From assembly GCA_918797485.1 (NCBI GenBank), contig CAKKNE010000001.1, positions 1,674,001-1,738,000 of the forward strand: a stretch of 64,000 nucleotides of DNA, written 5' to 3'. The stretch is from Pelagomonas calceolata. Taxonomy: Eukaryota. A program made the translations under genes and the position numbers. The notes under the pieces are model-generated. The model was not told the origin of the DNA, made no database searches, and worked only from the letters and a program-made list of their open reading frames with translations. Positions 959 to 62,102 of this stretch are shown here, in pieces. The stretch's first letter is position 1. Each line of letters starts with the position of its first letter.

Positions 959-982
959 GCTAGTGTCTTACTGGCCGCTAGC
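959..982 (+). promoter_or_regulatory. Conserved 24-bp upstream element (copy 1)
   Basis: gctagtgtcttactggccgctagc, preceded by a T tract, ~250 bp upstream of the ATG at 711. Confidence 0.65.
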
Positions 983-1138
983 GCGTAAACGCGGGAGCCC
1001 TGGAAGCCGCTCGACTCTGAGCTATGTCACGGCTTTTGCCGCCGACATGGACCTCCTGGGGAGCAGCGCTCGAGCCCCGACGCCGTGGCGGCGGCGCCGG
1101 AGGTCGACGCGCCCCAGCGAAAAACTACACGTGCCCAC

Positions 1139-2068
1139 TTACTCCTCGGGCATGGCACCCGCCGCGGCCGCCCCGCGCGCATACTTCGCCCCTTCGTAGT
1201 CGGGGTCCAGCGCCGAGCCCTCGTCCGCGTACACCACGTCGTCCATCGCCAGCAACTCGACGTGGCCGTCCTTGGACTCGTGGTGCTCTCTCGCTGCCTG
1301 AGCCCCTCTCGCATATTTGGCCCCTTCATAGTCCGGATCGAGACCGTCCGCGTTCGGCAGGACGCCGACCGCACCATCTCCAACATTTCGACCCGACACC
1401 GTGCGGTCGATCTTGCTCTCCTCTTTACTCTCACTCGACAGATCCAATTCGCCCTTGCCCGCCTGTTCGAAGGCGTGGGCGGCCACGATGACCGTGTAGG
1501 CCTTGTGCCACCGCTTGATGGCCGAAGAACGAGCGGATTTGACCTTCCTTAGTCGGTCCGGCGCGATGTGTTTTTCGACCTCATCAGTCTCATCGTACTT
1601 GACTTCGTAGACGGGACCCACGGGACCCGTCGTCACTTGCGTGACGTGGCCCACGAACTCCAACGCGCTGTCGACATCCCTCACTTTGACCTCATCGCCG
1701 ACCTCGATCGTGTGCCACGCTAGAACTCGCCGACACACATCCAAGAGTACAGATTGGACGTCATCCTCGCCAAAGTCGACCGTGCACATCATGCCGTTGA
1801 TCGCAATGACCACGCCCTCGTAAAACATCCCCTCGACGGGCGCCTGCACGACGTCGCCGCATTGTATAGCGGCGTGGTCCTCCATGGTCGTACTCAAGAC
1901 TTCTTGATCGTACTGCTGTCTTAGTTTTTTCATTAACATGGCTTTCTCTGTATCGGTGTCGCATGACTCAACCTCGGCGTCGTACTGGGCCTTGAGCTTC
2001 GCGTACAGAGCTCTTTCAGCGGGGTTTGTGAGCTCGTCGACGGGGATGGCCGAGGCGCCTGCCCCCAT
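1139..2068 (-). CDS. Probably N-myristoylated protein with tandem Tudor/Agenet-like domains
   Basis: Starts MGAGAS; two beta-rich units (GDVVQA..FYEGVV..CTVDF; GDEVKV..FVGHV..YEVKYD); C-terminal duplicated LDPDYEGAKYARGA. Confidence 0.7.
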   Translation of the reverse strand: MGAGASAIPVDELTNPAERALYAKLKAQYDAEVESCDTDTEKAMLMKKLRQQYDQEVLSTTMEDHAAIQCGDVVQAPVEGMFYEGVVIAINGMMCTVDFGEDDVQSVLLDVCRRVLAWHTIEVGDEVKVRDVDSALEFVGHVTQVTTGPVGPVYEVKYDETDEVEKHIAPDRLRKVKSARSSAIKRWHKAYTVIVAAHAFEQAGKGELDLSSESKEESKIDRTVSGRNVGDGAVGVLPNADGLDPDYEGAKYARGAQAAREHHESKDGHVELLAMDDVVYADEGSALDPDYEGAKYARGAAAAGAMPEE

Positions 2069-2395
2069 GATGCTGCCCTTTGGCTCGTCGGTGCGCGCGC
2101 GGCGGTCGGCGGCCGTCCCCAAAACGCACAGCGCAGGCGCTCCCGGGAGGCCTAGTGGGTTTACGAGCTGGTAAGCGACGAGGCCTTACCACAGAACTGG
2201 TACATGAGAGCTCGCCTCGCGGCGGCGGCGTGCCCGGGCGGCCTCGCTCCGGGGAACCTCGACGAGGCGGCTGCGTCCGCGCCGCGACTGCCCTTCCGTA
2301 CGCCTCCCCCCGCCCCCACGCCATCGCCGCGACCCGCCGACGGGGTACGACCGACGCGTCGCCGCGCCCCCACGACCTACTTAAGATCCAGCACC

Positions 2396-2971
2396 TTACT
2401 CCTCCGGCGGCGCCGCCGCGGCATCTCTCTCGCTCTGCAAAACCATCGCACCATCAATCTTCGCGATATTGGGCAGTCTCCGCAGCACTTCAATCTTCGC
2501 CTCGGTAGGTTCCAACCCTTCGTACATGGGGTTGCCCACCAGTAAAATATCTCTCAGGCCGGGGTTCGCGGATAACTTGCTCAACTCGTCAAAATTTTTG
2601 AGCTGATTGTTCGACATGTACAGCACTTGCAAATTCGTCAAGTTCGACAGGCCGTCCAAGGACTGGATCTGGTTGTACGAGCACCAGAGCTCCTCCAAAT
2701 TGTCCCCCAGGTCGTCGAGTTTATCAAATTTCTTGATCACGTTCCGGCCCACGCTCAAAATCTTGAGGTTCGGCAGCGACAGGGCCACGCCGAACTTGTC
2801 GATGGCGTTCGTGCTCAATTGTAAATGTTCGCACGCCGCCAAGTTGTTCAGAGACCCGTCCATCTTCGCGATGGGCGGCACCTGGCAGTAGAGCTTGACG
2901 ATCTTGGCCTCCGCGGCCACCTCGCCGGTCTTGGCCTCGAAGTTCTTGATGGCGGCGCCGCAGGTCGTCAT
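2396..2971 (-). CDS. DNAL1: Dynein axonemal light chain 1 (LC1, LRR protein)
   Basis: 191 aa; VKLYCQVPPIAKMD, LSTNAI, LEELWCSYNQI, LVGNPMY and IDG motifs typical of LC1. Confidence 0.9.
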   Translation of the reverse strand: MTTCGAAIKNFEAKTGEVAAEAKIVKLYCQVPPIAKMDGSLNNLAACEHLQLSTNAIDKFGVALSLPNLKILSVGRNVIKKFDKLDDLGDNLEELWCSYNQIQSLDGLSNLTNLQVLYMSNNQLKNFDELSKLSANPGLRDILLVGNPMYEGLEPTEAKIEVLRRLPNIAKIDGAMVLQSERDAAAAPPEE

Positions 2972-4745: not shown

Positions 4746-4769
4746 GCTAGCGTGCATCAACACACTAGG
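4746..4769 (-). promoter_or_regulatory. Conserved upstream element (copy 2, variant)
   Basis: gctagcgtgcatcaacacactagg, ~230 bp upstream of the PFAS ATG. Confidence 0.5.
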
Positions 4770-10853: not shown

Positions 10854-10877
10854 GCTAGCGGCATGTAACACACTAGA
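10854..10877 (-). promoter_or_regulatory. Conserved upstream element (copy 3), divergent promoter
   Basis: gctagcggcatgtaacacactaga between ATGs at 10744(-) and 11042(+). Confidence 0.65.
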
Positions 10878-19471: not shown

Positions 19472-19549
19472 TCTACTACTAGTACGACTACTAGTACTAC
19501 TATACGACTACTACTACTAGTAGTACTAGTACTAGTACTAGTAGTACTA
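19472..19549. repeat. Imperfect (TACTAG/TAC)n microsatellite in a convergent spacer
   Basis: tctactactagtacgactactagtactac...tagtactagtactagtactagtagtactat; core is self-complementary. Confidence 0.85.
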
Positions 19550-26638: not shown

Positions 26639-26661
26639 GCTAGCGGTAGTAAGACACTAGC
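26639..26661 (-). promoter_or_regulatory. Conserved upstream element (copy 5, 23 bp), divergent promoter
   Basis: gctagcggtagtaagacactagc, followed by aaaa. Confidence 0.65.
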
Positions 26662-34431: not shown

Positions 34432-34471
34432 GTGCACGCCATCGCCGCGACCACACCACACACAGATTTAC

Positions 34472-42440: not shown

Positions 42441-42464
42441 GCTAGCGTCGTGTAAGGCACTAGC
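42441..42464 (-). promoter_or_regulatory. Conserved upstream element (copy 7), divergent promoter
   Basis: gctagcgtcgtgtaaggcactagc. Confidence 0.65.
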
Positions 42465-42615
42465 AATCGAAGAGCAACATGAGCAAAACGCTCTGACCTT
42501 GCTACGTGGGCGCTGAAACACCCTCAAAACTAAGCATTCATTCATTGGACTGCCTCGTGGACCGCGCACCGCCGAGCTCTCCTCAGCATCTCACCAGCCA
42601 GCACTCAAGCCAACA

Positions 42616-44552: not shown

Positions 44553-44777
44553 GTTGGGCAGCCTCTCACTCGCCGCATTGATGGACAGCGGTCACCACGC
44601 GGCCAGCATGGATGCCGGTGGCCCGAATGGGCAGCCTTTTTGAGCAAGTGTGTGCAGCTGCTTTTGAGCTCCGGCCGGTGCTAGCAACAAACCAGCACGG
44701 GGTTTTCGCACGTTCTTTCGTGCGGAATGCACAAATAAGTGCGTTTGCAGCTCTTTGCGCAAGGCTGCTTTTTGCTT

Positions 44778-44801
44778 GCTAGTGTCTTACATGCCGCTAG
44801 C
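44778..44801 (+). promoter_or_regulatory. Conserved upstream element (copy 8), divergent promoter
   Basis: gctagtgtcttacatgccgctagc. Confidence 0.7.
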
Positions 44802-44938
44802 GCACGCGGGATTAGGCTGCCAAAAATAATAGCGTACGCGGCACCTCACGGGGATCTGAACTGTTTCGAACCAACATTAGTCATCACTCTTGCCGCCAGC
44901 GCAACAGGTTCCACCCGTATCGGCGACAAGCTCGCAAA

Positions 44939-47237: not shown

Positions 47238-47395
47238 TGTTCTGCTCCAACGCGGCAATCTGGTCGGGACTGACGAGTCCTGCAAGCGACGGCGCAAGAG
47301 TCCCCGCCCCGCTGGACCCGCCGGCCTAGACGCTGTCGAGCAGAAGAGCCAGCCCTGTTTTTTGTAGTAATCAGTTCGTTGTCTGTCAACACACA

Positions 47396-48698: not shown

Positions 48699-48819
48699 GA
48701 TTGCTGGGGAAACGTTGCTTGGGCGATCAGTGGTGAGGCTGGGGCCTGGAATCAAAGCCTTGCGTATCAGTAGCGAGTTATTTCGTGTAAAAGAGGCTGG
48801 CACTGCGCTCTGTTGTCAG

Positions 48820-48842
48820 TCTAGTGTCTCTACTTGCCTAGC
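48820..48842 (+). promoter_or_regulatory. Conserved upstream element (copy 9, degenerate)
   Basis: tctagtgtctctacttgcctagc, ~120 bp upstream of the galactokinase ATG. Confidence 0.45.
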
Positions 48843-49595
48843 ATCACCTTTTACGGTAAAGCGAGCGCGTCCAAGCCAAAACAAATTCACAGGAGGGTTG
48901 CTTGGTTACGCGGGTCCGGTGCTGCGTCGCGGCGGCGCCGTCGCGAGGTTCGTCGTTGTCGCGTTCGCGTAGTGCGGGCGCGCGGACCTCCAGACCACTT
49001 TTTTGGCTCGCGCGCGATGGGCATGCAAAAAAATTGCAAAAAGAAGAGGTGACACGTAGTGTCGTTTCAAGAAAGTAGGAGTTGACCTTCGCCCGCGTGT
49101 ACGGCATCTTCATTCACTCTTCGGATGAAGATTAGTAATGCCTGATGTGTTACATCAAAAGTGGCCCATCAACTTTAAGGATGATTGCGAGCTCACCAGC
49201 CTTGCGGCCAGGATGAATCGATATACTCACGGGCTCGGTCGCTAACTCTACGTCGGCGCACTCATCGGTGCAGCCGGGGGAGAAATCTTCGATTTTGCCT
49301 TAAGAACCCACCTTCGTGGAGGCGGGTTTGCGCCCGCCGGCTGCCAGGCCGCAACCGCATACCAGCGACACACGGCTCGTCTCCGAGCTATTTCGGACAA
49401 TTTCCCCCCCCTCGCAACGACTGCGCTGTCGCCGCTGCGTTCCTGCACTTGATAGAACCCACCGAGCTCTGCACCTCTTTGCAGCCACGACGACGCGGCG
49501 ACGCGGCGAGGCCGTCTTTGCTCACTAGCGCCTCTACCACACAACACCACCACTAGAAGACCCCACGACGCACTACTACTCGAACTACCACAGCG

Positions 49596-51266
49596 ATGCG
49601 ACGACTACTCTGCCTCGCCAGCACCGCTGCTGCTCTGCAAGGCAGCCCACCCCTACCACAACACCTGCAAGCCATAGAACGCGACCTCCGCAACGCCCAC
49701 ACACCTCACCTCAACAAGGAGATGAATGCCCTCTTCGAAGCCATCCCCGACGAGATCGGTCCCGTAAACGCGAAGATAGTCGCGGGCGCCATCCCGCACG
49801 ACCTCAAGAACGGCGCTCTCTTGAGAAACGGGCCGAATGCGCGACGCTGGGGCTCCAAGGGAGGGTGGCTGGACGGCGACGGCATGGTCCACGCTTGCGT
49901 CTTCAGCGAACAGCCACGGTATTCGCGGCGCTGGCTCCGGACCGAGGCCTTTGCGAAGGAAGAGGCTGTCGGAAAGGAGCTCTTCGACGGCTCGCTCGTG
50001 GCGCCGTTCGGTTACAAACTACTGGGAAACTTGGCGAAGAACCTGTTCCGCGCGAAGCAGCCGCAAAAGGACACGGCGAACACCGCGCTGCTCGCGCTGA
50101 AGCGGGGCCGCGTGCTCGGATTAATGGAGCAGTGCCGCCCCTGCGAATTCAAGGTCTACAGCGACGCCACGATCGAGACCGTCAAGCCGGGAAGCAACTT
50201 GGACGGCGGCCTCGACTTCTGGTCGCATCCCCTGAGCGGCGGCGCGTTGACGGCGCATCTCCACGCGAGCGCATCGCGGCCGCACGAAGCCGTCGGCGCG
50301 ACGTACTCGTCCTCGGATCAGCCGTTCTGTCGGATCGACGTGATAGACCTCGCGTCGGGCCGCGTCAGGAAGACCCACGGCGCGTCGAGCGGCGTCCATT
50401 CAACAGGAACGCGTCGATGGCGTAGAGGGTCAAAACACGCAGGCGTGGACCTCCGCTGCCCCGTCATGCTCCACGACTGCGCGCTAGCTGGGGACGACGT
50501 CGTCGTGTTCGATTTCCCGCTGACCGTGCGGCCCGCGCGGATGCTGAGCGACAAATTTCCGGTCGAGTACGAGCCGACGCACGGCGCGCGCATCGGCGTC
50601 GTCCACCGCGAGACGGGCGCCACGACGTGGGCCGCCGTGGAACCGGGCGTCGTCCTCCACGCGGCGAACGCGCACTTCGAGGGCGATACGCTCGTTGTTC
50701 GGGCGTTGCGGAGTCTTCCCGCGACGCCGTCGTCGTTCATCGCGTCCTACACGCCCGCGTTCCTCTACGAGTGGCGGATACGGGGCGAGCGGTGCCTCGG
50801 CGAAAAATATATTTCCGAGACCGCGTGCGAGTTCCCGGCCGTGGACCCGCGCTGCGTCGGCGCGGACGCGCCTTGTTGCTTTGCGATCTCACCGCGGACG
50901 ATCGGCGGTCCCAATATATACGGCCCGCCTAGCGAAGGTATTTTAATTGATCGCGTGGTCAAGTTCGACCTCCGCGGCGACGGCGACGACGCTTTCGCCG
51001 ACGCCTGGACGCTCCCTGAAAACTTTTGGCTCGTGTCGGAGCCGACGGTCGTGCCCAAGAGCGACGGCCGCCTCGGCGACGGCGTCTGGGTCCTGGTCTT
51101 CGGCACGTCGACGGCGCCCGCGCGACAAAAGACGCACGTCTACGTGCTCGACGGCGAGGACCTCGCGAGCGGTCCCGCGTGCGTCGTCGAGCTGCCCGGC
51201 GCGGGCTTGCCCTACGGGCTCCATAGCTGCTGGGTGGACGGTGCGGAGCTTGCTGTGCCGCGATGA
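49596..51266 (+). CDS. Carotenoid cleavage dioxygenase (RPE65/CCD family), plastid-targeted
   Basis: LRNGPN, WLDGDGMVH, TAH, MLHD, LHAANA, CEFP, SEP and PYGLH motifs; probable in-frame GC-AG intron 50380-50442. Confidence 0.9.
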   Translation: MRRLLCLASTAAALQGSPPLPQHLQAIERDLRNAHTPHLNKEMNALFEAIPDEIGPVNAKIVAGAIPHDLKNGALLRNGPNARRWGSKGGWLDGDGMVHACVFSEQPRYSRRWLRTEAFAKEEAVGKELFDGSLVAPFGYKLLGNLAKNLFRAKQPQKDTANTALLALKRGRVLGLMEQCRPCEFKVYSDATIETVKPGSNLDGGLDFWSHPLSGGALTAHLHASASRPHEAVGATYSSSDQPFCRIDVIDLASGRVRKTHGASSGVHSTGTRRWRRGSKHAGVDLRCPVMLHDCALAGDDVVVFDFPLTVRPARMLSDKFPVEYEPTHGARIGVVHRETGATTWAAVEPGVVLHAANAHFEGDTLVVRALRSLPATPSSFIASYTPAFLYEWRIRGERCLGEKYISETACEFPAVDPRCVGADAPCCFAISPRTIGGPNIYGPPSEGILIDRVVKFDLRGDGDDAFADAWTLPENFWLVSEPTVVPKSDGRLGDGVWVLVFGTSTAPARQKTHVYVLDGEDLASGPACVVELPGAGLPYGLHSCWVDGAELAVPR

Positions 51267-51300
51267 TAAGTCTTATTATGGTAATTACGACCTAGAGCAG

Positions 51301-52008
51301 CTACCTCGGCGACGGCAAGGGCTTTATGCGGCCGCGGACTGATTCTCGGTTTCGCAAGCAACCCGCAATACTCACCGTTAACGGGTGCGCGCCGCCAAAC
51401 ACGCGCCGTGCGATCGGTACCAGATCCTCGAGCGTCGTCACGGCCTCGCGGAGATCGCCAGGCGTGGCGCCGGTGTCCATGTAGAGCGCCATCGCGTAAA
51501 TCCACCTCCAACACGCCCACCCGAGCGCGCACTTTACGACACCGTGGTATTGTTGCTCGCAGAGGCTACACGTGTGCCATCGCACCCACCTCGCCTGCAA
51601 CGCCTCGGGGCCCAAATTGTTCTCCTTGACCTCGTCCATCAAAATCTTCGCCTGCTCCGCCAAGCACGACACGTGCGCGAAGCCCGCCGTCCCGCGGCAC
51701 GCACACATGCGCACGAGGCCCTCCTTCGTTTTCCAGTGGAGGGCCTGCGTGCAGATGTAGCACGTCTGGCCCTTCGTGTCGTCGGCGCACGCCTCGACCG
51801 CGACCGCGACCGCCTCCTTGTATTTTTTGTCTGCATTATACTGTTCCGCGTTGCCCCCGCGGTGTATTTTCTTGCACATCTGCTTGTGACCGCGGCGCCA
51901 GTGGTCATGCTGGCAAGTTTTGTTGCAGTATCTCGTCTGGCATCTAACGCATCGCGGCGCGTCGTGGGCCAGTGGGGCGGCACAGGCGGCGCAATTTGTG
52001 AGGATCAT
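51301..52008 (-). CDS. MYND zinc finger + RING-CH-like protein, apparently internally deleted
   Basis: CAAC..CVRC..YC..CQ..HW..GHK..C; CYIC..CACRG..AHVSC..CSLC; jumps directly to the C-terminal helix. Confidence 0.75.
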   Translation of the reverse strand: MILTNCAACAAPLAHDAPRCVRCQTRYCNKTCQHDHWRRGHKQMCKKIHRGGNAEQYNADKKYKEAVAVAVEACADDTKGQTCYICTQALHWKTKEGLVRMCACRGTAGFAHVSCLAEQAKILMDEVKENNLGPEALQARWVRWHTCSLCEQQYHGVVKCALGWACWRWIYAMALYMDTGATPGDLREAVTTLEDLVPIARRVFGGAHPLTVSIAGCLRNRESVRGRIKPLPSPR

Positions 52009-52172
52009 TTTGCGTTTTGCGGTGAGTTATTGGGGCTTGCGCGTCGGCTTGACTCGGCTTGGAAAACCCGATTTTTTCAACTCGCAAAAGAGGCGCACGA
52101 GCCTTTTTTTGACATTCACTTCACTCGCTACAACACACATTACCTTCTACTACCATCGGTGCGGCCGGCCGG

Positions 52173-52835
52173 TCAAGGGTCGGGTCGCTCCGGCCGCTCC
52201 CCGAGAACGCGCGCGAGTTCCTCGGCGGTGCTGGGCGCGCGGCCCCGACGCCGTCGACGCGAAAGCGGGTTCTGGAGCGAGCTGCTCGCCGCCTGCGCGT
52301 CGGCGAGCTTTGCCCGTTCCCGCGCGACGCGCTCGGGCGAGTAGTCGCGGGAGTCGTCCTCCGGCGCCAGGCCTCGTTCCAGCCAATACTGTTCGCCGTA
52401 GTCGAACGATAGCTCATCCCCCGCTTTAATATCCTTCAGAGCATAAAACGCCACGCGCCGCTCCGCCAGACTCACGCGCGGCTCGAGGCAGGCGTCCTGC
52501 GCGTGGTTGATCGCGCGGCTCGCGTGGTCCGAGTCGACGGCGTCGATGTACACGTGGCTGCCGGCCACGGCGCCGCCGCCGAGATGGAACAAGTATTCTG
52601 GCTCTTCAGAGACGTAGCGCACGGCTCGCTGCGCGAAGTCGATCACCTCGCCTTCATAATCGCAGACCCACGCGCCTTGAGAACGGTCCTCGGCGGCGAA
52701 CGCGCCCAACCCTTTGCTGCCGCAGTCCTTCACAGTCATGCGCAGCTCTGGCAGAGCAGGTGTCGGTGACGGCACCGCGAGTGCATTGCAGTGCTGCAGA
52801 TGTGCTGCTGCCAAAATTAGCAGCGCGGGGCGCAT
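52173..52835 (-). CDS. SET-domain lysine methyltransferase with N-terminal signal peptide
   Basis: KGLGAFA, YEGE, RAINHA, ELSFDYG. Confidence 0.8.
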   Translation of the reverse strand: MRPALLILAAAHLQHCNALAVPSPTPALPELRMTVKDCGSKGLGAFAAEDRSQGAWVCDYEGEVIDFAQRAVRYVSEEPEYLFHLGGGAVAGSHVYIDAVDSDHASRAINHAQDACLEPRVSLAERRVAFYALKDIKAGDELSFDYGEQYWLERGLAPEDDSRDYSPERVARERAKLADAQAASSSLQNPLSRRRRRGRAPSTAEELARVLGERPERPDP

Positions 52836-52953
52836 GTCTCTCGAAGAGCGCGGATTCGCGACCACTCGCAACGTGTAGTAATTATGCGCAGCTATGCCGT
52901 GTAAAGGATAGTGGCTGGAATGCCTGCTGGGGCGCTGGCTTGCGCACCGCTGT

Positions 52954-52977
52954 GCTAGTGTCTTACTGGACGCTAGC
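52954..52977 (+). promoter_or_regulatory. Conserved upstream element (copy 10), divergent promoter
   Basis: gctagtgtcttactggacgctagc, one mismatch to copy 1. Confidence 0.7.
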
Positions 52978-53128
52978 TTCGACCTCGCACAACATAACGC
53001 GACCTACTACGCGTCAGCGGCGACAAAATCGCGAGTAAGCCGCGCGTCGAGGTCGCGCAGCGCGCGCTCCAACTCGGGCGTCGAGGCCTGACCCGAAAAG
53101 ACCGCGTCCAAGGTACCACACAAAAGCG

Positions 53129-54010
53129 ATGGCCGATCTCTCTCGCCATCATCCTGGACGAGCCCTGCTCGACTCTAAGAACTCACCATTGGCCAAAGCG
53201 GTACAATCGCTCGACGTGGCGCGGCTACGCGAGCTCCTGGCCGGCGGGGTGGACGCGAACACTCGCATCGGATCGAAGACTGCGCTCTATTCGCTGTGCT
53301 CGACGCGTCTCAGTGTGGAATCCGTCTCGGAGCCACCGCTCGACGGCCCCGGCGAGGAGTCCCAGCTGTACTGCAAGCCGGCAGGGGACCCGGTACGTGC
53401 CGGAGCAAATCGATACGACGACTTTCACCGGACACAACAAAGGGCCGCGTGCGTCGCTGCGCTTCTGGACGCCGGCGCCGATCCGAACTTGCGACCGTGG
53501 GGTAGCGATCCAGACACGCCCCTGATCGAAGCGGCCTTGCATGGCTTTCCTGACATCGTGCGATTGCTTTTGGCGCACGGCGCGGACGTCGGCTTCGCAC
53601 AGAAACACGGTAACTCAGTGCTTCACGCGGTTCTATTCACGCGGCCGAATGTTCTAGAACGCGACCAGGCAGAATGTGTTAGATTGCTGATTGCGGGTGG
53701 TGCGGACGTGCACGCAAAAAGAATTAACCAAAATCATGGGCTGCCTGGGCCCACGCCCTTCGACGATGCGCTCTATTACCACCGTAGATGGCTTTTCCCC
53801 ATCTTCCTGAGGGCCGGCGCTTCTTGTGACCGGGAATTCCTAGAGGGGTATTCTTACTTCAGAAAAGTCCGCGACGCCGGCGGTATCAAAGCGTACGAAA
53901 AGGCGCATCTCAAGCGCCTCGTCGTTATGCTCGTCCACAAATTCCCGCAGCTCCCGGCCGCCGTTCATCCCCGCATTGTGATGCACTGGGCGCACGTCGG
54001 GGATTACTAA
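53129..54010 (+). CDS. Ankyrin repeat protein
   Basis: LLDAGADPN, TPLIEAALHG..IVRLLLAHGADV, LIAGGADV. Confidence 0.85.
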   Translation: MADLSRHHPGRALLDSKNSPLAKAVQSLDVARLRELLAGGVDANTRIGSKTALYSLCSTRLSVESVSEPPLDGPGEESQLYCKPAGDPVRAGANRYDDFHRTQQRAACVAALLDAGADPNLRPWGSDPDTPLIEAALHGFPDIVRLLLAHGADVGFAQKHGNSVLHAVLFTRPNVLERDQAECVRLLIAGGADVHAKRINQNHGLPGPTPFDDALYYHRRWLFPIFLRAGASCDREFLEGYSYFRKVRDAGGIKAYEKAHLKRLVVMLVHKFPQLPAAVHPRIVMHWAHVGDY

Positions 54011-54038
54011 TCAACAAAAAGATTAACAACAGAACAAT

Positions 54039-54884
54039 TCACTCCACGTGCCGCAACAACCACCCCCGACACGCGCTAGCCCCGCAGAAGCACTCCGTCC
54101 GCGAGTCCTCGACCGCGTCGTCCGGCGCGCCGCCCGCGTAGTCGAACGCGAGTTCGACGCCCACCGCCACGTCCTTCAACGTGACGAGCGCGAGCGTCGG
54201 CAGGAACTGGCCCCGCGTCGACCGCGTCGGCACCACTTCACAATTCGGCGCGCACGAGTGGTTCACGAAGCGCGCGACGCCGCCGCGGTCCGTCGCGTCG
54301 ACCGTCGTCCGCCAGGCCGCCACGCTCTCGTCGCGCGAGTGCTCGACGACGGATAAAATATAGGTCGGCCGGCCCGCCTCGAACTCGGCCCGCTCCCGCT
54401 CCCGCGCGGCCGTTCGCGAGACGACGGCGCCCGTGTAGTCGACGACGCGCCGGCCTTTCGGGATGTGCTCGCCGGCGACGAGGCCCCAGCACTTCTTCGC
54501 GGCGAGCCACGCGACGCGCACCTCGGCGTGGACGTCGTGCTCGGCGCCCGCAAAATTATTATAACGCGGCAGGACGAGCTTGCGCGCGTACCGGAAGCCC
54601 TCCGGGAAGGGAGGCGCGGGCAGCGGCGGCCGCCCGACGACCGGCACCGGCCGAGCGCCGCCGCGGCTGGCGTCGCGGCGGATCGCGGCCACGACTTGGC
54701 GGGCCGCACCGCGTGCCGCCCGCGAGCAGCGCGCGACGGCGACGGCGTCCGCGAAGTCGCAGAATGGCGCCGCGAGCGCCACGCACCGGAGCGGCGCGGC
54801 GAGCGGAGGCGGCACGGCGCCCAGCGCCCTGGCGCCGTCGCGCCGCCAGCGCCGGCGGAAGGCGTGCCAGTCCGTCTGGGCCAT
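54039..54884 (-). CDS. SET + post-SET histone lysine methyltransferase-like protein
   Basis: WGLVA, YTG, ARFVNHSCAPN, ELAFDY, CFCGASACRG. Confidence 0.85.
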   Translation of the reverse strand: MAQTDWHAFRRRWRRDGARALGAVPPPLAAPLRCVALAAPFCDFADAVAVARCSRAARGAARQVVAAIRRDASRGGARPVPVVGRPPLPAPPFPEGFRYARKLVLPRYNNFAGAEHDVHAEVRVAWLAAKKCWGLVAGEHIPKGRRVVDYTGAVVSRTAARERERAEFEAGRPTYILSVVEHSRDESVAAWRTTVDATDRGGVARFVNHSCAPNCEVVPTRSTRGQFLPTLALVTLKDVAVGVELAFDYAGGAPDDAVEDSRTECFCGASACRGWLLRHVE

Positions 54885-55195
54885 CACTGATGCATTTGGC
54901 TGTGGCGCGGCCGCCAGAGCTCGGCGCGTTGAAAGCTCTCTGTTTCCGCTTCTCCAGAGATCACTTTCGATGAACGCCGGGCGCTGCCGGTCAACTGCGA
55001 TCGCTGCTCGGATGTCCTCTTGCCCTCCTCTCCCTGTGGTTAGGAGAGCAGTCGTGGCCCTGTCGCTTTCACAGCGCTAGGTCACTCGAGAGCGGGTCGC
55101 GCATTGCAAACGACGCCTCGCGCTGCCACCACAGCGCCCAGCACGCGCCGCAAACCACGCACGCGGCCGAAACCTCTGGAGGAGGCCACACCACA

Positions 55196-56037
55196 ATGCA
55201 CACTGTACTCCGCCGCGCGGCCCCGCGGCTCCGGGCCGCAAGCCGTGCCATCAGCACGACAACTGCGCCACAGTCGCGAGGCTGGGTGCTGGGCGTGGCC
55301 AGCGCTGCAGCGGGCGCGGCCGGCGCGCTCGCGGTCGCCGGCGAGCGGCCGCCGCCGTCCGTCGCGGAGTGGGCGGCGCGCGACGACCCCGGCTCGTCCA
55401 ACGCGGAGCAGCGCTTCGCCCAGTGGAAGCGCGTCGACGAGGGACTCGTCGCGAGCGGCGCCGCGAAAAGCAATGCCATCTACGACGCGTTTGGTGCAGT
55501 GTGGAAATCAACCAGTGAGTTAAGTTCACGGGGACAACGTCGCGTCGATGGCGTGGGGCGCCCGAGATTTGATTTCCACGCAGGTTAGGCGCGCAGACGA
55601 ATGCCCTCAAGCACCACCGCCTCTGGTCGAAGCCCGACGGCTCCGAGGTCGCCTGCGTGGCGACGTTCGGCGACGACTGCGTGGGCCATCCGGGCGTCGT
55701 CCACGGCGGCGTCACCTCTCTACTGTTCGACAACACGCTCGGCTGGGCCAACGCCCTGTCCATCACGAAGGGCGGCGACCCGTCCCAGCACGACACCGTG
55801 AAACAGTTCGGCATGACGGCGAACCTGTCCGTGAACTACCGGCGCCCGCTCTTCGTGGGCCAGACGGTCGTCATCTCGTGTTCGTTGGATCGGGTCGAGG
55901 GCCGCAAGCGCTTCCTCAAGGGCGTCATGAAGGACGGGAAGACGGGCGGCGTCATCGCGGACGCGACGGCGCTGTACGTCGTGCCGCGCACGGCCGCGGA
56001 GAAGGCTGCGGGCGTCAAGTCTACTTGGGCGAAGTGA
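55196..56037 (+). CDS. Mitochondrial hotdog-fold acyl-CoA thioesterase (THEM4-like), 2 exons
   Basis: join(55196..55488,55584..56037); mitochondrial-type presequence; GHPGVVHGG..LFD, TANLSVNYRRP. Confidence 0.85.
55489..55591 (+). mobile_element. Introner forming the 95-nt intron 55489-55583
   Basis: TSD gtttggtg / gttaggcg (6/8); TIR cagtgtggaaatcaa / ttgatttccacgcag. Confidence 0.85.
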
Positions 56038-56078
56038 GTAACTGTTCTGTTGAGTATTGTGGCGCGCGGCGATGGTTT

Positions 56079-56102
56079 TCTAGCGGCTGTAAAGACACTA
56101 GC
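56079..56102 (-). promoter_or_regulatory. Conserved upstream element (copy 11)
   Basis: tctagcggctgtaaagacactagc, ~220 bp upstream of the ATG at 56321. Confidence 0.6.
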
Positions 56103-56320
56103 AAACGAGCACACACAGTGCTCAGCTTCACGCAAGATCACGCCAATATTCTGCACCTCGCAGCGCGTTGGGGCATCGATTCCTGAAGCGCTGCGCCTGC
56201 TGCAGCATCTCGCGCCATCGCTGCGGCACTTTGAGGCCTTTGACCACATTGCTCTCACTGCTCTCTGAAAGCCTGCGGCGCTGTTCATCGTCGCGCGTGG
56301 CTGGAACGCCAGCAAACGCC

Positions 56321-58111
56321 ATGTCTGACGCCATAACAAACGATCCAGAACTGGAAAGGAAGGGCTGCGCGGCAGCCGCGGAGTACGCGCAGATCCACTG
56401 GGCGAAGCTGCAGCGCCTCGTCAACGACGACGCCGTGCCCGCGGAATCGATCGAGCTGCACGGCAACGACCGGCGGCTCTACGCCTGCTTCCGCGCGTCG
56501 ATCTCGGAGGACGTCGCGGTGCTGCGCGCCGAGCAGCTGAAAACGCGGATCTGGCGCGATCTGCTCACGTGCATGGATGGTCGCGTTAAAGATCACAACT
56601 TTATGACGCTGTTACGGCCCGACGCGGCGCTGAGCTACGACGACCAGCGCGAGAACCTCTTCGTCGTGCCGCGGGCGCAGTTTCTGATGATCGAGCTCGC
56701 TCGTCAACGGGAGGGCTGCTACGACGGCGCATGGCGGGCGAAGCGACGCGCGTGCGCAATGCCGGCGTCAGCACCGCTCCGCCTCACGCGGACTACGCGC
56801 TACAGCGTGCTGGAATGCGCCGCGAGCACGGCCAGAATTGTGGGCGTGGACGCATCGTCGAGCGCGGCCGACGCTAGCGCGACGAGCGCGACGGCTGAAG
56901 GAGCCGAGGAAGAGTCGGACAACGCGCGCGCCGCAAGACTGGGCAAGCAGCTCGCAGAGTGCGTCCCGTGCGCCGAGGCGGCACGTAGGCTGCCCTGTCC
57001 GCGGACGGCGGCGCGGCGGCCGCGCGATGGCGCCCCCGTCGTCATCGACGGCGCGCTGGATCAAGCGGCGTGCGCCGAGGCCTGCGCGGCCGCACTGGCC
57101 TTCTTCGACGGCGCGGGGGACCGTAGAATTGCCGAGCAACAATTGCATCGCGGCGACGACGTGGCCTTTGTCCCTCTATTTGGTGAGGACGAGGGCTCGC
57201 CGCTGCGACAGGCGCTGGGGCCCGCGCGCCGCCTCCTCGCGCGCGCCGCCGCCGACATCGGCGATGCGGATTTGTTAGTCCCGGAGGTAGCCCAGCTAGC
57301 GTTGTACGACGGGTGCAAGCGCAATTTAAAACCAGGGTACGTCGCGCACCGTGACAACGCGTCCACACCTGGTGCTGCTGGCGAGAACTACCGCGAAGTG
57401 ACGTTGCTCCTCTATCTGAACGGCGCGCCACCGGGCGCTAGCGGCGGCGAGCTCCGTTCGTACGTCGGCGCGGAGCCCTCGGATCTCGATGGCGCCACCG
57501 CCCTGCGCGTCGACGACATCCAGCCTCGCGCGGGTCGCCTCGTCCTCTTCGAGTCGCGCACGCTGTTGCACGCTGTGCGGCCCGTCGGGCTCTGGCGCCG
57601 CGTCGCGCTGTCGCTCTGGTGCCTCAAGCGGATTCCGAACGATAGACTCTCGCCACTTACGGATATCTTGGGCGCCGATGCTTTCCAGTACTTGGATGCG
57701 ATAAGTCTGGCCCGGCTTGCAGCGTGCGCGCGCGTGTTCGGGAAGAAGAAGGACGGGCGCTCGCTCTGCGACGCAGCAGCGCGGCAGCAACTTAGCGCCC
57801 TCCGCGAAGAATTCTTGACGGGAGTCAAGAGCATCGACGGTATGGACTGGCTTCTATACCGACAAATTCCCTCCTGGATCTACTGCTTGTACGATTGGGA
57901 AGAGTCGAGTGCTGCGTTAGGAAGATGGGGCCCCGTCGACATGTTCGGGGACCGTGGATGGACATTCCGTCGAAAAGAGAAGGAACGCGAAAAGAGGAAG
58001 AGGGCCGTGGACGAGATCCGACATCAGATACATATCAAAGGCTCCCGGGCCCAGGAGTATGTCGACGATTTTCTCGCTGAGCTACTCCGGGACGCGCGCG
58101 AGGAGGACTAA
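56321..58111 (+). CDS. Fusion of PBDC1-like domain + EGLN/PHD-like 2OG-Fe(II) prolyl hydroxylase + F-box-like tail
   Basis: LYACFR...WR...DHNFMTLLRPDA...VPRAQFLMIELARQREG; YVAHRDN, TLLLYLN, GGELR, LHAVRP, RVALSLW. Confidence 0.7.
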   Translation: MSDAITNDPELERKGCAAAAEYAQIHWAKLQRLVNDDAVPAESIELHGNDRRLYACFRASISEDVAVLRAEQLKTRIWRDLLTCMDGRVKDHNFMTLLRPDAALSYDDQRENLFVVPRAQFLMIELARQREGCYDGAWRAKRRACAMPASAPLRLTRTTRYSVLECAASTARIVGVDASSSAADASATSATAEGAEEESDNARAARLGKQLAECVPCAEAARRLPCPRTAARRPRDGAPVVIDGALDQAACAEACAAALAFFDGAGDRRIAEQQLHRGDDVAFVPLFGEDEGSPLRQALGPARRLLARAAADIGDADLLVPEVAQLALYDGCKRNLKPGYVAHRDNASTPGAAGENYREVTLLLYLNGAPPGASGGELRSYVGAEPSDLDGATALRVDDIQPRAGRLVLFESRTLLHAVRPVGLWRRVALSLWCLKRIPNDRLSPLTDILGADAFQYLDAISLARLAACARVFGKKKDGRSLCDAAARQQLSALREEFLTGVKSIDGMDWLLYRQIPSWIYCLYDWEESSAALGRWGPVDMFGDRGWTFRRKEKEREKRKRAVDEIRHQIHIKGSRAQEYVDDFLAELLRDAREED

Positions 58112-58152
58112 TGTGTTGTTTGACTTAATACATCGAGCGAAAAACGAACGAA

Positions 58153-59193
58153 CTAGTGACCAGCGAGGAACGGGAGCGCGCGCGCCGCGGCCGGCGACGC
58201 GCGAGAAGCCGGATCGACGTCTAACAACCGCTCGAGCAGATCGACCGCGTCAGTATCCCGCGACAGGCCCTTGCCGGGCATGCGCCGCAGCACCGAGCAC
58301 AGGTCCCGGACCACTTCCCCCTGGCGCTTCGCGACCTTCTTGCCCTCGCGGTTCGGCACGGCCAGCGCCCCGCGTAGCCAGCGTCCCGGCTTGCAGCGGA
58401 ACTGGGGCCGGCCCGGCGGGTCGCAGACGCGCGAGTTGAAGGGAAACCAGACGGGAAAGCCGCACGCGAGTTCCAGAAAAACTGCCCCCACCGCGTAGAC
58501 GTCGACGGACGCCGGTGGCGCCGTCCTCAGAGTTTGTGGATGTGTAACGCACTCCGGCGCGCGGTACTCGGGCGTCGCCGAGCCGCCCGGGTCGCCCACG
58601 GCAAACTCGTAGGCACTTCCGAAATCGCAGAGGCGCGGTACCGCCCCGTCCATGAGGATGTTATCAGGCTTGATATCGGCGTGCACGATGCCCGACGCCG
58701 CGAGGTGCTCCACCGCCTCCAATAATCGCGCCAACAACACGCGAAGCTTCTTGTGCGCCACGGGCTGCGTAACATCTTTTTCGTCTTCGAACAAGTCGTG
58801 CCAGAAGTGGCCCCGGTCGACCCTGTAGGTCCGCGAGCTCTGGCCGCAGACGCGCGTGTACTCGCCCTCTACCTTCAACCATGTCAAGGACGCGAGCGAC
58901 GGGCCGCCCAGCTCCGTCGTGAGCCACAGCGCGTTTTCCGTCGTCGCTTGTGAGACGAGGCCGCAGATCAGCCGGTGCGATTGTAGTTGTCTCAGCATCC
59001 TGGCCTCGCGCTTGCCGCTCTTTTCGGCTCCACATAAATCGGCGGCTCCTCTCACAAAGCGCTTCGCCGCGACGGCGCGCCCGTCCTCGAGAACAGCTCG
59101 GTAGACGGTGCCAAAAGTGCCTGTCCCGAGCTCAGCTTCTATGGATACGCCCGGCGGCGGCGCGCAGTCCGCCGTGGACACCTGCTGCGCCAT
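58153..59193 (-). CDS. Ser/Thr protein kinase
   Basis: GTGTFGTV, AAK, HADIKPDN, DFG, YRAPE, DVYAVG. Confidence 0.9.
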   Translation of the reverse strand: MAQQVSTADCAPPPGVSIEAELGTGTFGTVYRAVLEDGRAVAAKRFVRGAADLCGAEKSGKREARMLRQLQSHRLICGLVSQATTENALWLTTELGGPSLASLTWLKVEGEYTRVCGQSSRTYRVDRGHFWHDLFEDEKDVTQPVAHKKLRVLLARLLEAVEHLAASGIVHADIKPDNILMDGAVPRLCDFGSAYEFAVGDPGGSATPEYRAPECVTHPQTLRTAPPASVDVYAVGAVFLELACGFPVWFPFNSRVCDPPGRPQFRCKPGRWLRGALAVPNREGKKVAKRQGEVVRDLCSVLRRMPGKGLSRDTDAVDLLERLLDVDPASRASPAAARALPFLAGH

Positions 59194-59422
59194 CGGTGCC
59201 ACGCGTCGTCGCCGCGAGGGGCTGCGCAACGGTGCTGCGAAGGCTGCCCGACGCCGGTTGTGTGAGCTGCTGGTGCGGGGTCAACGACGAGACGCTTTCG
59301 ACGCGCGCCGCACATTGACGGGGCCCTCCGGAAGTCTAATCTACGGGGTCGAGGCCAGAAAAAGCGCGTCGCGCTCGATCGGACGGCACGCGGCGCGCGA
59401 AGAACAAGCTACGGAAGAATAT

Positions 59423-61330
59423 TTAAACAGAGCTTCGATCGACCGACTCCTGGCGCGTCACCGACGAGTCCGCGATCCTAAAGGCCGACGTCAGCGACGT
59501 CGTCCGCGCGCCCAGGGCTTCGTCGACCTCGGGCAGCTCTTTGGCCAACCTTTTCATCACCGGCTCGACCTCGTTCGCGAGCTCCGCTCTACATTGTACA
59601 GCCACGTCCGCCCGCAGCTCGCGCACCCGATTGCCCATGCGCCCCGGCAGCACGAGTTCGCCGCCCTCGACGCCGAACGCGTACGCGTCCCGGAAGTACC
59701 AGAGCTCCTCCATGACCTCGTCGGCGTCGGCGCCTGTGCCTGGTTTCCTCGGCGCTTTGAGGCCCGGTCGCCTCCGGGCATACTTCTCGAGGTCCGTCAA
59801 ACGACTTCCCATGTTTAATCGAGGCGCCCACGTCTCGCGAAACTTGGCCAGGAAAAGCTTCCCGCCCTGGATGGCTGATCGTGCTTTCTCCTCCTCGTCT
59901 CCTTCGACGAAAGACGCTTCTAACCTAGCTTGCCGCGCCGCTCGCTTCGCGAGAATGCGTTCGTCCTGGCAGTCGTCGCGCACCTCGTACTCGAAGTTCA
60001 AGCGTAGATAAGGACAATCGGTAACGGCTTGCACGACATCTGATGATGCTGCTAGTCCATCCAACTCCTTATCGAGCAACTCCAAAGCTCTCAACGTAGC
60101 CAGTCTATCACACAACCTTCGGTCGAACGACGCCAGCGGCATCTCCTCGCTTTCCGTCTTGTAGACCGTCTCGCCACCGATCCTCAATTCCTCGGCGGCG
60201 TTCATCTCCGTCGACGGCAGCGCTTTCACCGGCATCGCATCCCTATAACACCGCTCCCGGTCCGTCTCTTCCAGTATGCCGTAATGGAACGACCAGTTGT
60301 CTATGAGAGCGTCCGCCGTCCGCAACAACCGATGTAGAATCCATCTCGTATCTATTGGTTCTTCATAAAACATGGACTTCAAGGCCTGCGCCATCAGGAA
60401 CGGGTTCTTCTTCTGCCTTTCGCTGAAGCGCTGCGGCGGCTGGGCGAGCTCGACCTCCACCACATCATCGGGCGTGTTGCCTAGCGTTTCGAGGTACTCG
60501 ACCCAGTTGCCTCGCAATTGGCACAAAGCCGGCGTATACGAGGACGGCGGGCCCGCACTCCCGGTGTCTCTTAATTTGGGTCCCAAGTGGTCGTGCCCGA
60601 GGAACTTCGACAGCCACGACACTTGGGGCTCGTTCCTCAACGCCGCGGAGTACTGGAGCTGCGTCTGGACGGACCGCTGCGTGATCGCCGCGCCCAGATC
60701 GTCGTACGCATAACCCTCGCCGATCTCAGCAACGATGGCGTGCGGCCCCGACGTCGGCAGCGCGTCCACCACCGTCTCGACGGCGTCCTTCGGCACGCCT
60801 GACGGTGGACTGCTCGAGGCGATGTTTCTAGCTTCCTCGACCGCTTGCGCGAGGCGCGTCTTCTCCTCCTGCTGTACAGATTCCTCCTCCCGGATCGGGC
60901 GGCTCATGTAGCGGCAGGGGTCGCCGGGGTCGTGCCGCGCTTTGTCGGCCTTGGCCTGGGCGGCCTTTTCTAAGGCTGCCGCCGCATCAGATGCGGCCGG
61001 CGCCGCCGCCGCCGCCGGAGCCGCTGCCGGCGCCTCGACCGGCGGCCAGTCCCACGACGTGCGGCCGTCGGCCGTGTAGTAGTACGTGCCACCACTGGTA
61101 GGGTCGACGGCGGCCTGCCAGTCCGCGTAGGGGTCGACGACGGGAGTAGTGGGGTCGTCCCACGTCGTCGCGCCGGTCTCGGCGTCGTGCCAGTACGGGT
61201 CGCCGGACGCGGCGTCCTCGTAGCGCTGCCAGTCTGCTCGCAGGACGCTCGTGGGGCGTCTTACCGAAACCGGCGGCGCGATGAGCGCCGCGGCGCCGCC
61301 GGCTAGCGCCGCGAGCGATGCGAGCCTCAT
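59423..61330 (-). CDS. Probably plastid-targeted protein with two WW domains
   Basis: Signal + transit peptide; WQRYEDAASGDPYWHDAETGATTWDDP and WQAAVDPTSGGTYYY..TSWDWP. Confidence 0.75.
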   Translation of the reverse strand: MRLASLAALAGGAAALIAPPVSVRRPTSVLRADWQRYEDAASGDPYWHDAETGATTWDDPTTPVVDPYADWQAAVDPTSGGTYYYTADGRTSWDWPPVEAPAAAPAAAAAPAASDAAAALEKAAQAKADKARHDPGDPCRYMSRPIREEESVQQEEKTRLAQAVEEARNIASSSPPSGVPKDAVETVVDALPTSGPHAIVAEIGEGYAYDDLGAAITQRSVQTQLQYSAALRNEPQVSWLSKFLGHDHLGPKLRDTGSAGPPSSYTPALCQLRGNWVEYLETLGNTPDDVVEVELAQPPQRFSERQKKNPFLMAQALKSMFYEEPIDTRWILHRLLRTADALIDNWSFHYGILEETDRERCYRDAMPVKALPSTEMNAAEELRIGGETVYKTESEEMPLASFDRRLCDRLATLRALELLDKELDGLAASSDVVQAVTDCPYLRLNFEYEVRDDCQDERILAKRAARQARLEASFVEGDEEEKARSAIQGGKLFLAKFRETWAPRLNMGSRLTDLEKYARRRPGLKAPRKPGTGADADEVMEELWYFRDAYAFGVEGGELVLPGRMGNRVRELRADVAVQCRAELANEVEPVMKRLAKELPEVDEALGARTTSLTSAFRIADSSVTRQESVDRSSV

Positions 61331-61574
61331 GATGCAGGATGCAGTGTCCCAGCGATGCAAGGCCTATTTACCCCCAGCGATTGATGTGCAGCTTCGATCG
61401 CGACTGATGTGCAGCTTTGAGAAGCTGCAAGGAGTGCTGGATGCACCGCTGCTGCCGCCCAGGTTGAGAGCAGGCCGCGTTTGCAGTGCGTCGAGGCCTC
61501 GTCGACATTCTCGTGCGGGTTCTCGAGCTCACCGGGAACGATAGTAAATTATGTATAAAGTTAGTTGACACAGG

Positions 61575-61853
61575 CTAGTGGCAGTCCCAGGGGTGCTTGA
61601 AGCCGAGCACCCACTGCCAGTCCTTCTCGGCGCGGTACATCATCCACACCCACATGGTCGTGGCGTAGATCGTGCCCAAGACCTCGTGGACGGGCTGCGG
61701 CTTGAAGTGGCCGTAATAGGGGCTTTGTTTGTCGGCCCAGGGGCGGCCTCCACCCGCGCCCATCGTTCGTCGCGGCGCAAGCGTCAAGCGCGGCGCGGCG
61801 GCGCGCGCCGGGGCCGCGGCGCGGCGCAGCGCGGCGAGGGCGACGACGGACAT
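61575..61853 (-). CDS. NDUFB2: Mitochondrial complex I subunit NDUFB2 (AGGG)-like
   Basis: Mitochondrial presequence then GAGGG; TMWVWMMYRAEKD...LG.KHPW. Confidence 0.75.
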   Translation of the reverse strand: MSVVALAALRRAAAPARAAAPRLTLAPRRTMGAGGGRPWADKQSPYYGHFKPQPVHEVLGTIYATTMWVWMMYRAEKDWQWVLGFKHPWDCH

Positions 61854-62078
61854 CGCTTTTTTTTTTGTTCTGCGCTGGCGCGCGGCGGCGCGCGGCCTGT
61901 TTTTGCGGCTTATTGCCTTTCGGCCCTTTTTGTGCGCGCTGCCGTCCGGGGCTCGCCGCGGCGCTTACGCTGTCTTTGGAGTGGTCAGCGCCGGCCAAGT
62001 AACGAGTCTGGGGTGCGGTGGGCCGCTGGAAGGGGTCTAATTCACCGCAAAAGGACGCTTGGGACGCGAGCTGCTTTT

Positions 62079-62102
62079 GCTAGTGTCTTACAATACGCTA
62101 GC
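62079..62102 (+). promoter_or_regulatory. Conserved upstream element (copy 12), divergent promoter
   Basis: gctagtgtcttacaatacgctagc, preceded by tttt. Confidence 0.7.

What the first reader, a model, noticed from the sequence alone, without database searches (positions are those of the whole stretch)
959..62102. A 24-bp quasi-palindromic element (GCTAGTGTSTTAC-N4-CGCTAGC) marks promoters throughout the window
Seen: 12 copies at 959, 4746, 10854, 12491, 26639, 35528, 42441, 44778, 48820, 52954, 56079 and 62079, in either orientation. Arms GCTAGYG...CRCTAGC surround a ~10-bp asymmetric spacer, often next to short A/T tracts. Copies 12491 and 44778 are identical, and 959 and 52954 differ by one base, yet I see no shared flanking sequence, so they do not look like fragments of a larger repeat. 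Every copy lies ~50-250 bp upstream of an ATG. Nine sit between divergent genes and three in tandem spacers. None was found in a CDS or in any of the ~13 convergent spacers. The adjacent genes are functionally unrelated (purine synthesis, complex I, VTE6, WD40, GH3, SET). Inference: this is a long, high-information site for a dimeric general regulatory factor that defines bidirectional promoters or nucleosome-depleted regions, analogous in role to yeast Abf1/Reb1. It could also be a domesticated transposase binding site. I do not know of a description of this motif.
Basis: partly seen in the sequence, partly recalled or inferred. Interest (0 to 1): 0.88.

Follow-up and report, generated by a model that had tools for sequence, protein, structure and literature searches.

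The report
Two-way promoter signal in pelagophyte alga
A 24-letter DNA word sits about 20 letters from where RNA begins on either side at many promoters of a tiny marine alga and is kept, though flipped, in related lineages, so it is likely the docking site of an unidentified protein that would start transcription in both directions.

Summary
The element is real: 11 strong copies and 1 weak one (48820) in 64 kb, none expected by chance, all 12 in spacers holding a gene start. The host is a pelagophyte, probably Pelagomonas (inferred). RNA 5' ends lie 14-25 nt outside the element at five gene starts; at 44778 two divergent starts are about 67 nt apart with the element between them. That is core-promoter distance, and no copy has a TATA box nearby. 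Flanks are mostly unshared, with no target-site duplications and no covariation, so it is not a MITE or a hairpin. Related lineages (25-31% diverged at four-fold sites) keep it at both orthologous promoters tested, in opposite orientation: a clear 42-bp micro-inversion at 44778, a weaker case at 42441. It carries about 31 bits where about 13 would locate it. Best reading: an orientation-independent binding site for a lineage-specific factor that sets up bidirectional initiation; the protein and causality are untested. Ten literature searches found no description. Limits: no genome or second pelagophyte genus was available, 5' ends come from polyA RNA-seq, and absence from convergent spacers is uninformative.

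The parts
959..982 (+). Element copy, tandem spacer, 248 nt upstream of the minus-strand ORF 1-711; followed by a CGCGGGA module shared with other loci
   Evidence: (34.5 bits)
4746..4769 (-). Element copy, tandem spacer, 190 nt upstream of FGAM synthase (purine synthesis)
   Evidence: (26.7 bits)
10854..10877 (-). Element copy, divergent spacer (unknown gene / RING-finger gene)
   Evidence: 29.0 bits
12491..12514 (-). Element copy identical to 44778, divergent spacer (unknown gene / FG-GAP gene)
   Evidence: 34.5 bits
26639..26661 (-). 23-bp copy (spacer one base shorter), divergent spacer (unknown gene / PH-domain gene)
   Evidence: 33.0 bits
35528..35551 (+). Element copy, divergent spacer (methyltransferase / unknown gene)
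   Evidence: 28.9 bits
42441..42464 (-). Element copy, divergent spacer (WD40 / DUF92-VTE6); degenerate 22-23 bp versions at the same place in L005 and L006, core probably inverted; RNA 5' ends at 42478 (contig) and 42523 (reads)
44753..44753 (-). RNA 5' end of the gene 43449-44552 (7 of 7 molecules), 25 nt left of the element
   Evidence: table 6; contig end 44750
44772..44813 (.). Segment inverted in place in related lineage L005 (35 matches in a 42-column alignment to the reverse strand; flanking genes collinear)
44778..44801 (+). Element copy centred between two divergent RNA starts (unknown gene / GH3 glycosidase)
44820..44820 (+). Approximate RNA 5' end of the GH3 gene, 19 nt right of the element
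   Evidence: contig start 44820; one search read depth rises in bin 44816-44827
48820..48842 (+). Weak 23-bp copy; RNA 5' ends of the left gene at 48777/48784 (36-43 nt); the right gene (RPE65-like) starts about 500 nt away
   Evidence: 13 bits, near noise
52954..52977 (+). Element copy, divergent spacer (SET / ankyrin genes)
   Evidence: 34.5 bits
56079..56102 (-). Element copy, tandem spacer; RNA contig of the downstream gene starts at 56126 (24 nt)
   Evidence: 26.4 bits
62079..62102 (+). Element copy, divergent spacer (small minus-strand gene / cupin-like gene); RNA 5' ends at 62056 and 62061 (23 and 18 nt)
   Evidence: 34.5 bits

Best explanation
The element is likely a double-stranded DNA binding site for an unidentified, lineage-specific promoter factor that would sit at the centre of a short promoter and position transcription starts about 15-30 nt beyond either end. 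Shown: 24-bp bipartite word (long arm GCTAGTGTCTTAC, 4-nt variable spacer, short arm CGCTAGC), confined to spacers with a gene start, RNA 5' ends just outside it, no TATA box, kept at orthologous promoters, either orientation tolerated. Inferred: the two CTAG half-sites 18 nt apart are read by two or more DNA-binding modules; the near CTAG falls at about -15 to -29 from the RNA 5' end, where TBP normally sits, so the factor would recruit or place the pre-initiation complex, one direction at a time when starts are only about 67 nt apart. Inferred: the imperfect inverted arms make the site prone to micro-inversion, and because function is orientation-independent such flips survive.
For: Placement 12 of 12 in 5' spacers, p = 7.5e-11. 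Six further distinct copies in eukaryote-like stretches of marine MAG contigs lie 124-197 nt upstream of an ATG; two were found by lying next to a search hit; one stretch has Aureococcus proteins as its named relatives. 5' ends shown for 7 of the 11 gene starts flanking the six copies in 42200-62199: five at 14, 18-23, 19, 24 and 25 nt, one at 36-43 nt (weak copy), one at 503 nt. No RNA reads on either strand at 44756-44767. No TATA-like box within 60 nt of any of 12 copies. Present at 2 of 2 orthologous promoters in lineages 25-31% diverged at four-fold sites while flanks align poorly. Outer pairs break without compensation, 0 of 7 pairs covary; hairpins no more stable than shuffles, z from +1.0 to -1.5 in 7 folds. 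Among tandem cases the long arm faces the driven gene in 3 of 5 (coordinates).
Against: 5' ends come from polyA RNA-seq of one sample (X21, X22) and from contigs only guessed to be RNA (X9); they are not capped-end maps, and one read cluster at 42523 lies 59 nt out. 6 of 15 divergent and 10 of 13 tandem spacers have no copy, and a gene without one still has a normal-looking 5' end (61484). The L005 and L006 versions at 42441 are degenerate and score under 15 bits (not listed), so selection there is loose. About 31 bits against 13.4 needed is more than one ordinary factor requires. A few copies elsewhere are read through by RNA (189 of 206 reads only partly on the stretch).
Confidence: 0.6

Rival explanations
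1. It is a general-regulatory-factor site in the yeast sense: the bound protein would mainly exclude nucleosomes, and starts fall near it only because the open region is small.
For: Same placement data; T-rich 5' flank, 36% T in the last 20 nt; functionally unrelated neighbours; yeast GRFs act at least partly by steric constraint of nucleosomes (10.1101/331793, passages).
Against: Starts cluster at 14-25 nt from the edge at five gene starts, overlapping the space a pre-initiation complex needs (established knowledge). No CpG or GC phasing anchored on the element (p = 0.49 and 0.70), though the window shows no CpG periodicity at all, so the test is weak.
Confidence: 0.2
2. It is a self-spreading or recombinogenic micro-element: a protein of recombinase or transposase origin would cut, flip and copy the site, and promoter activity would be its second role.
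For: Opposite orientation at 2 of 2 diverged orthologous promoters, the only significant near-diagonal reverse-strand match in 4.2 kb; 31 versus 13.4 bits and an empty score range between 14.3 and 26 bits; a shared CGCGGGA module after some copies.
Against: n = 2; the 42441 flip is moderate against L006 (score 20 vs 11) and ambiguous against L005 (17 vs 16); a closer pair, L003/L004 (94.6% alike), is not flipped. Micro-inversions of 17-33 nt flanked by inverted repeats arise without any dedicated enzyme (PMC8755829, abstract). No TSD pattern. No recombinase or transposase family among 47 ORFs scanned.
Confidence: 0.12
3. It is the remnant of a MITE or of transposon ends that favoured open promoters.
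For: One arm reads CACTA on the reverse strand (CACTA family name recalled, not tested); many genomic loci share about 30 nt with one copy; pelagophytes have abundant introner elements (10.1101/2021.10.25.465678, section 17).
Against: DNA depth returns to single copy within about 12-24 nt on both sides, and loose ends agree only 0.38-0.50; no flank match among the window's 12 copies at E <= 0.05; direct repeats of 2-3 nt at only 3 of 19 copies; kept at orthologous positions.
Confidence: 0.04
4. It works as a structure (RNA hairpin, DNA cruciform) or as a replication origin rather than as a transcription-factor site.
For: 7-bp arms with an invariant T-G pair on one strand; a few copies lie inside transcripts; origins often sit in promoters (recalled).
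Against: No compensatory change, 8 unpaired cells at the two variable pairs; folds no better than shuffles; no Rfam match at E <= 1; local RNA does not cross the copy at 44778; one per 5 kb is dense for origins (recalled).
Confidence: 0.04

Closest known systems
Human bidirectional promoter motifs (ZNF143, NRF1, NFY, SP, ETS, CREB; 10.1101/2023.06.27.546584, passages seen)
   Same: Non-strand-specific motif that drives initiation away from itself on both strands at a preferred distance.
   Different: No sequence likeness tested or apparent; here one 24-bp, about 31-bit word with two CTAG half-sites, in a stramenopile, with starts only 14-25 nt from its edge.
Yeast general regulatory factors Rap1, Reb1, Abf1 (10.1101/331793, passages seen)
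   Same: One site type at many unrelated promoters, often between divergent genes, next to A/T tracts; Abf1 sites are also bipartite (recalled).
   Different: Different sequence (recalled consensus), longer and far more specific; closer to the start sites; nucleosome effect and binding protein not shown.
Phytophthora infestans promoter motifs (PMC3597505, passages seen), a genome-wide stramenopile survey
   Same: Stramenopile promoter words with positional bias and conservation in related species.
   Different: Those 103 motifs are 6-9 nt long; the main text has 0 occurrences of CTAG; its Table S1 was not read.
Inverted-repeat-flanked micro-inversions (PMC8755829, abstract seen)
   Same: Short segments flipped in place between imperfect inverted repeats.
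   Different: There 59 events between human and chimpanzee; here both diverged orthologous sites examined appear flipped, and the flipped unit is a candidate promoter element.
Pelagophyte introner elements (10.1101/2021.10.25.465678, section 17 read)
   Same: Very numerous short repeats with inverted ends in the same lineage.
   Different: Introners are about 210-bp introns with splice sites inside genes; this is 24 bp and lies outside transcripts at the site mapped.

Membership tests
Bidirectional (core) promoter element | Confined to 5' regions of genes | tested here: met
   12 of 12 in window, p = 7.5e-11; 6 of 6 distinct outside copies upstream of an ATG
Bidirectional (core) promoter element | Fixed short distance to transcription starts on both strands | tested here: met
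   Five starts at 14-25 nt; both sides shown only for 44778; polyA RNA-seq, not CAGE
Bidirectional (core) promoter element | Conserved at orthologous promoters | tested here: met
   2 of 2 sites in L005/L006, one of them degenerate; no second genus tested
Bidirectional (core) promoter element | Required for initiation; bound by a protein | not testable with these tools
   needs reporter mutagenesis and footprinting
General regulatory factor site (Abf1/Reb1/Rap1 type) | Occurs at many functionally unrelated promoters | tested here: met
General regulatory factor site (Abf1/Reb1/Rap1 type) | Creates a nucleosome-depleted region and phases arrays | tested here: inconclusive
   CpG/GC phasing p = 0.49 and 0.70, low power, no periodicity in the window overall
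General regulatory factor site (Abf1/Reb1/Rap1 type) | Matches a known factor's matrix (JASPAR/CIS-BP) | not testable with these tools
   no motif database or Tomtom available
MITE / transposon remnant | Target-site duplication | tested here: not met
   16 of 19 copies none, 3 with 2-3 nt
MITE / transposon remnant | Shared sequence beyond the inverted arms with fixed ends | tested here: not met
   depth falls to single copy beside the element; flanks do not align; a minority share a CGCGGGA module
Structured RNA / hairpin | Covariation and stable fold | tested here: not met
Site-specific recombination site | Inverted arms around an asymmetric spacer, with inversion events at the site | tested here: inconclusive
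   anatomy fits; 1 clear and 1 moderate flip, 1 closer pair unflipped
Site-specific recombination site | Cognate recombinase | not testable with these tools
   no genome held; none among 47 window ORFs

The most novel reading that the evidence does not exclude
One protein of recombinase or transposase ancestry both serves as the TATA-replacing core-promoter factor for about a third of this alga's genes and still cuts, flips and copies its 24-bp site, so promoters are seeded and re-oriented by a domesticated mobile system. This would explain the 18 excess bits, the empty score range below the strong copies and the flips at both diverged orthologous promoters.
Probability: 0.12. Interest if true: 0.92.

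Novelty: new variant of a known kind. Interest (0 to 1): 0.68.

Why it matters
If the window is typical there are roughly 5,500-6,000 copies in a 31-32 Mb genome (extrapolated from one window), serving about 20 of the 43 genes here. That would be a first defined promoter code for pelagophytes, a group the genome paper calls cosmopolitan and abundant (abstract). It gives a ready bait for finding the factor, a roughly 70-bp two-way promoter for transformation, and a marker for placing gene starts in metagenomes. It also makes two general questions testable: how compact eukaryotic genomes start divergent genes from very short TATA-less promoters, and why a site would carry more than twice the information needed to find it.

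Tried and rejected
No whole genome is held, so there was no genome-wide scan. Viral contigs: 0 matches to the consensus; a looser pattern gave 5 matches, all inside phage ORFs, treated as chance. The 4 GTDB hits equal the count expected by chance for 19 fixed bases (about 4, my arithmetic); they count only because all 4 lie in eukaryote-like stretches, and L003/L004 are one locus. Other CTAG-N14-CTAG pairs in those four MAGs (51 of 57) have unrelated middles; 181 of 182 genomes of the class of G002 have no match. Of 80 DUF92 loci only L005 and L006 are close relatives with upstream DNA; L007 (71%) has 43 nt upstream, so it could not be tested; none of L007-L084 has a hit above 15 bits. Summed contig depth at 44780-44791 (11,543 against about 16) is not a copy number because overlapping unitigs inflate it; I use only that 281 contigs were laid, 82 with foreign flanks. 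Run X12 (organism B) holds this DNA at 5-8x with no differences, so it gives no evidence for a second species. Degenerate candidates at 2152, 18766, 23194, 30302 and about 32620 score under 10 bits and are not claimed. An apparent rule that the long arm faces the driven gene (3 of 3 in the window; a line I wrote into, not a computed result) fails at both L004 copies. CpG phasing, Rfam and tRNA scans were negative. The Aureococcus virus methylates CTAG-type motifs (PMC12700378, passages); no link to this element was found. PMC6672047 (passages) gave nothing on pelagophyte promoters. Earlier scan notes: nothing relevant.
Full report
Observation. Ten 24-bp copies match GCTAGTGTSTTAC-N4-CGCTAGC with 0-3 mismatches at the stated places, against 0.00 expected from 100 shuffles; a looser arm pattern adds the 23-bp copy at 26639. 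Every one of the 10 CTAG pairs spaced 18 nt apart in the window is a copy. To avoid circularity I trained a two-arm matrix on 7 copies from outside the window (5 of them found by consensus patterns, one the orthologue in L005): it scores 11 window copies at 26-35 bits, nothing else above 14.3, and gives 0 hits above 20 bits in 20 shuffles; 48820 scores 13 and is near noise. In 17 aligned 24-mers, 12 positions are invariant.

Host. The genes are eukaryotic and photosynthetic (light-harvesting protein, formin, SET, RING). The DUF92 protein is about 70% identical to proteins named Aureococcus anophagefferens. GC near 62%, 43 genes per 64 kb and a 31.4-million-letter DNA run fit Pelagomonas calceolata as published (63% GC, 32.4 Mb, 16,667 genes; 10.1101/2021.10.25.465678, passages and section 17). 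The species name is inferred. No genome was held.

Placement. With a hand-made gene model, copies occupy 9 of 15 divergent, 3 of 13 tandem and 0 of 14 convergent spacers. Twelve of 12 in 14.3% of the sequence gives p = 7.5e-11, but convergent spacers total 824 bp, so their emptiness has P = 0.36. Several copies overlap long ORFs that I judged spurious. Outside the window, a GTDB scan gave 4 matches, all in eukaryote-like stretches of marine MAG contigs; two of these loci carry a second copy and one more came from the same MAGs. L003 and L004 share one locus, leaving 6 distinct copies, each 124-197 nt upstream of an ATG. One stretch has Aureococcus proteins as its named relatives.

Transcription. 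Reads were laid on 42200-62199 and 44600-44959. At 44778 the left gene's RNA ends at 44753 (7 of 7 molecules), no read covers 44756-44767, and the right gene's RNA begins at about 44820: two divergent starts about 67 nt apart, 25 and 19 nt from the element. That is 7 of 11 flanking gene starts; the other 4 were not in the truncated tables. Raw reads come from one sample, and contigs cannot prove a start. No TATA-like box lies within 60 nt of any of the 12 copies. About 190 reads from a few other loci cross a copy, so some copies are read through.

Not a larger repeat, not a hairpin. In the DNA run, 281 contigs lay on the 360-bp stretch, and depth returns to single copy within about 12 nt on the left and 24 nt on the right of the element; loose ends agree only 0.38-0.50. 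Flanks of the window copies do not align, and 16 of 19 copies have no flanking direct repeat. A minority share a downstream CGCGGGA module: 3 of 19 here, with a 19-nt match between the flank of 959 and another locus. No pair of the 7-bp stem covaries and the two variable pairs simply break; 7 folds are no better than shuffles; Rfam gives nothing at E <= 1.

Conservation and flips. Of 80 metagenome loci, L005 and L006 are collinear relatives, 25% and 31% different at four-fold sites. L005 has a full copy at the promoter orthologous to 44778, but reversed: 35 matches in 42 columns on the reverse strand, score 50 against 23 collinear; its flanks match 44778 best of 17 copies (score 20; 2 of 136 unrelated pairs reach that). 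It is the only significant near-diagonal reverse match in 4.2 kb. At 42441, L006 and L005 have degenerate 23- and 22-bp versions at the same place; the L006 core fits better inverted (20 vs 11), the L005 core is ambiguous (17 vs 16). A closer pair, L003/L004 (94.6%), is not flipped. Seven-base arms are too short to cause assembly inversions (established knowledge), and two assemblies agree at 42441. Inverted-repeat micro-inversions are known without a dedicated enzyme (PMC8755829, abstract).

Information. Thirteen copies not selected by a middle-specifying pattern carry about 31 bits after small-sample correction, 16 of them outside the two CTAGs; 13.4 bits would locate 12 sites in 64 kb. This excess points to several binding modules or to copying, and is unexplained.

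Mechanism. Most likely (0.6) a protein-binding, orientation-independent core-promoter element: the near CTAG lies where TBP normally binds, so the factor would place initiation on either side. A nucleosome-barrier role of the yeast GRF type (0.2) differs mainly in how starts are set; the CpG phasing test was negative but weak. Together these give about 0.8 for a promoter-defining protein site. A self-flipping or self-copying element (0.12), a MITE remnant (0.04) and a structure or origin (0.04) remain. Protein, binding and necessity are all inferred.

Known or new. It works like human bidirectional motifs (10.1101/2023.06.27.546584, passages) and yeast GRF sites (10.1101/331793, passages), but membership of any named motif family could not be tested. 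Ten searches (listings and abstract starts seen) found no description: the literal-string search listed 20 of 48 papers, none on algae by title or abstract; Pelagomonas with MEME gave 0; the genome preprint has 0 occurrences of motif, promoter or palindrom in its main text. Its supplements are closed and unseen, the Phytophthora motif table was not read, and subscription papers on Aureococcus chromatin and pelagophyte genomes are outside the library, so an earlier mention cannot be excluded.

Verdict. A real, probably undescribed promoter element of a pelagophyte; a new variant of a known kind; interest 0.68, rising to about 0.9 if the flips and excess information reflect an active recombination or copying system.

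Noticed in passing
window 42485-42562: 78-bp non-coding block in the DUF92 5' leader, 96% identical in L005 and L006 while four-fold sites differ by 25-31%; no Rfam match, no covariation in 3 sequences. Unexplained.
   Followed up: partly
window 44601-44640 and 44831-44864: Two more conserved non-coding blocks (92% and 94% with L005) in the two leaders flanking the 44778 element.
   Followed up: no
window 990-1008 and 44805-44811; L003 339-345: CGCGGGA module 3-8 nt after the element; at 959 it extends to a 19-nt match with another expressed locus. Possible co-factor site or subfamily.
   Followed up: partly
window 55500-55584, 17734-17844, 34436-34450, 63025-63045: ACGCCATCG-type repeats that attract many reads from other loci; probably introner-related (family assignment recalled, not tested).
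   Followed up: no
window 51420-52080: MYND/RING gene draws many divergent reads on both strands, suggesting a multi-copy family.
   Followed up: no
window 19473-19549: (CTA)n-type microsatellite with many CTAG in the convergent spacer between the light-harvesting and NPC1-like genes.
   Followed up: no
window 27193-27211 and 27294-27312 (approximate): A 19-nt AT-rich direct repeat at the 3' ends of two convergent genes.
   Followed up: no
window 2152, 18766, 23194, 30302, about 32620: Half-sites or mis-spaced CTAG pairs in 5' spacers that lack a full copy; below significance.
   Followed up: partly
L001-L004, L091 (G001-G004): Four prokaryote MAGs in GTDB contain eukaryote-like, at least in one case pelagophyte, sequence, partly as chimeric contigs.
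   Followed up: partly
window 33742-34431: OmpA-family match (E = 3e-5, under the Pfam cut-off) in an algal gene; possible bacterial origin.
   Followed up: no
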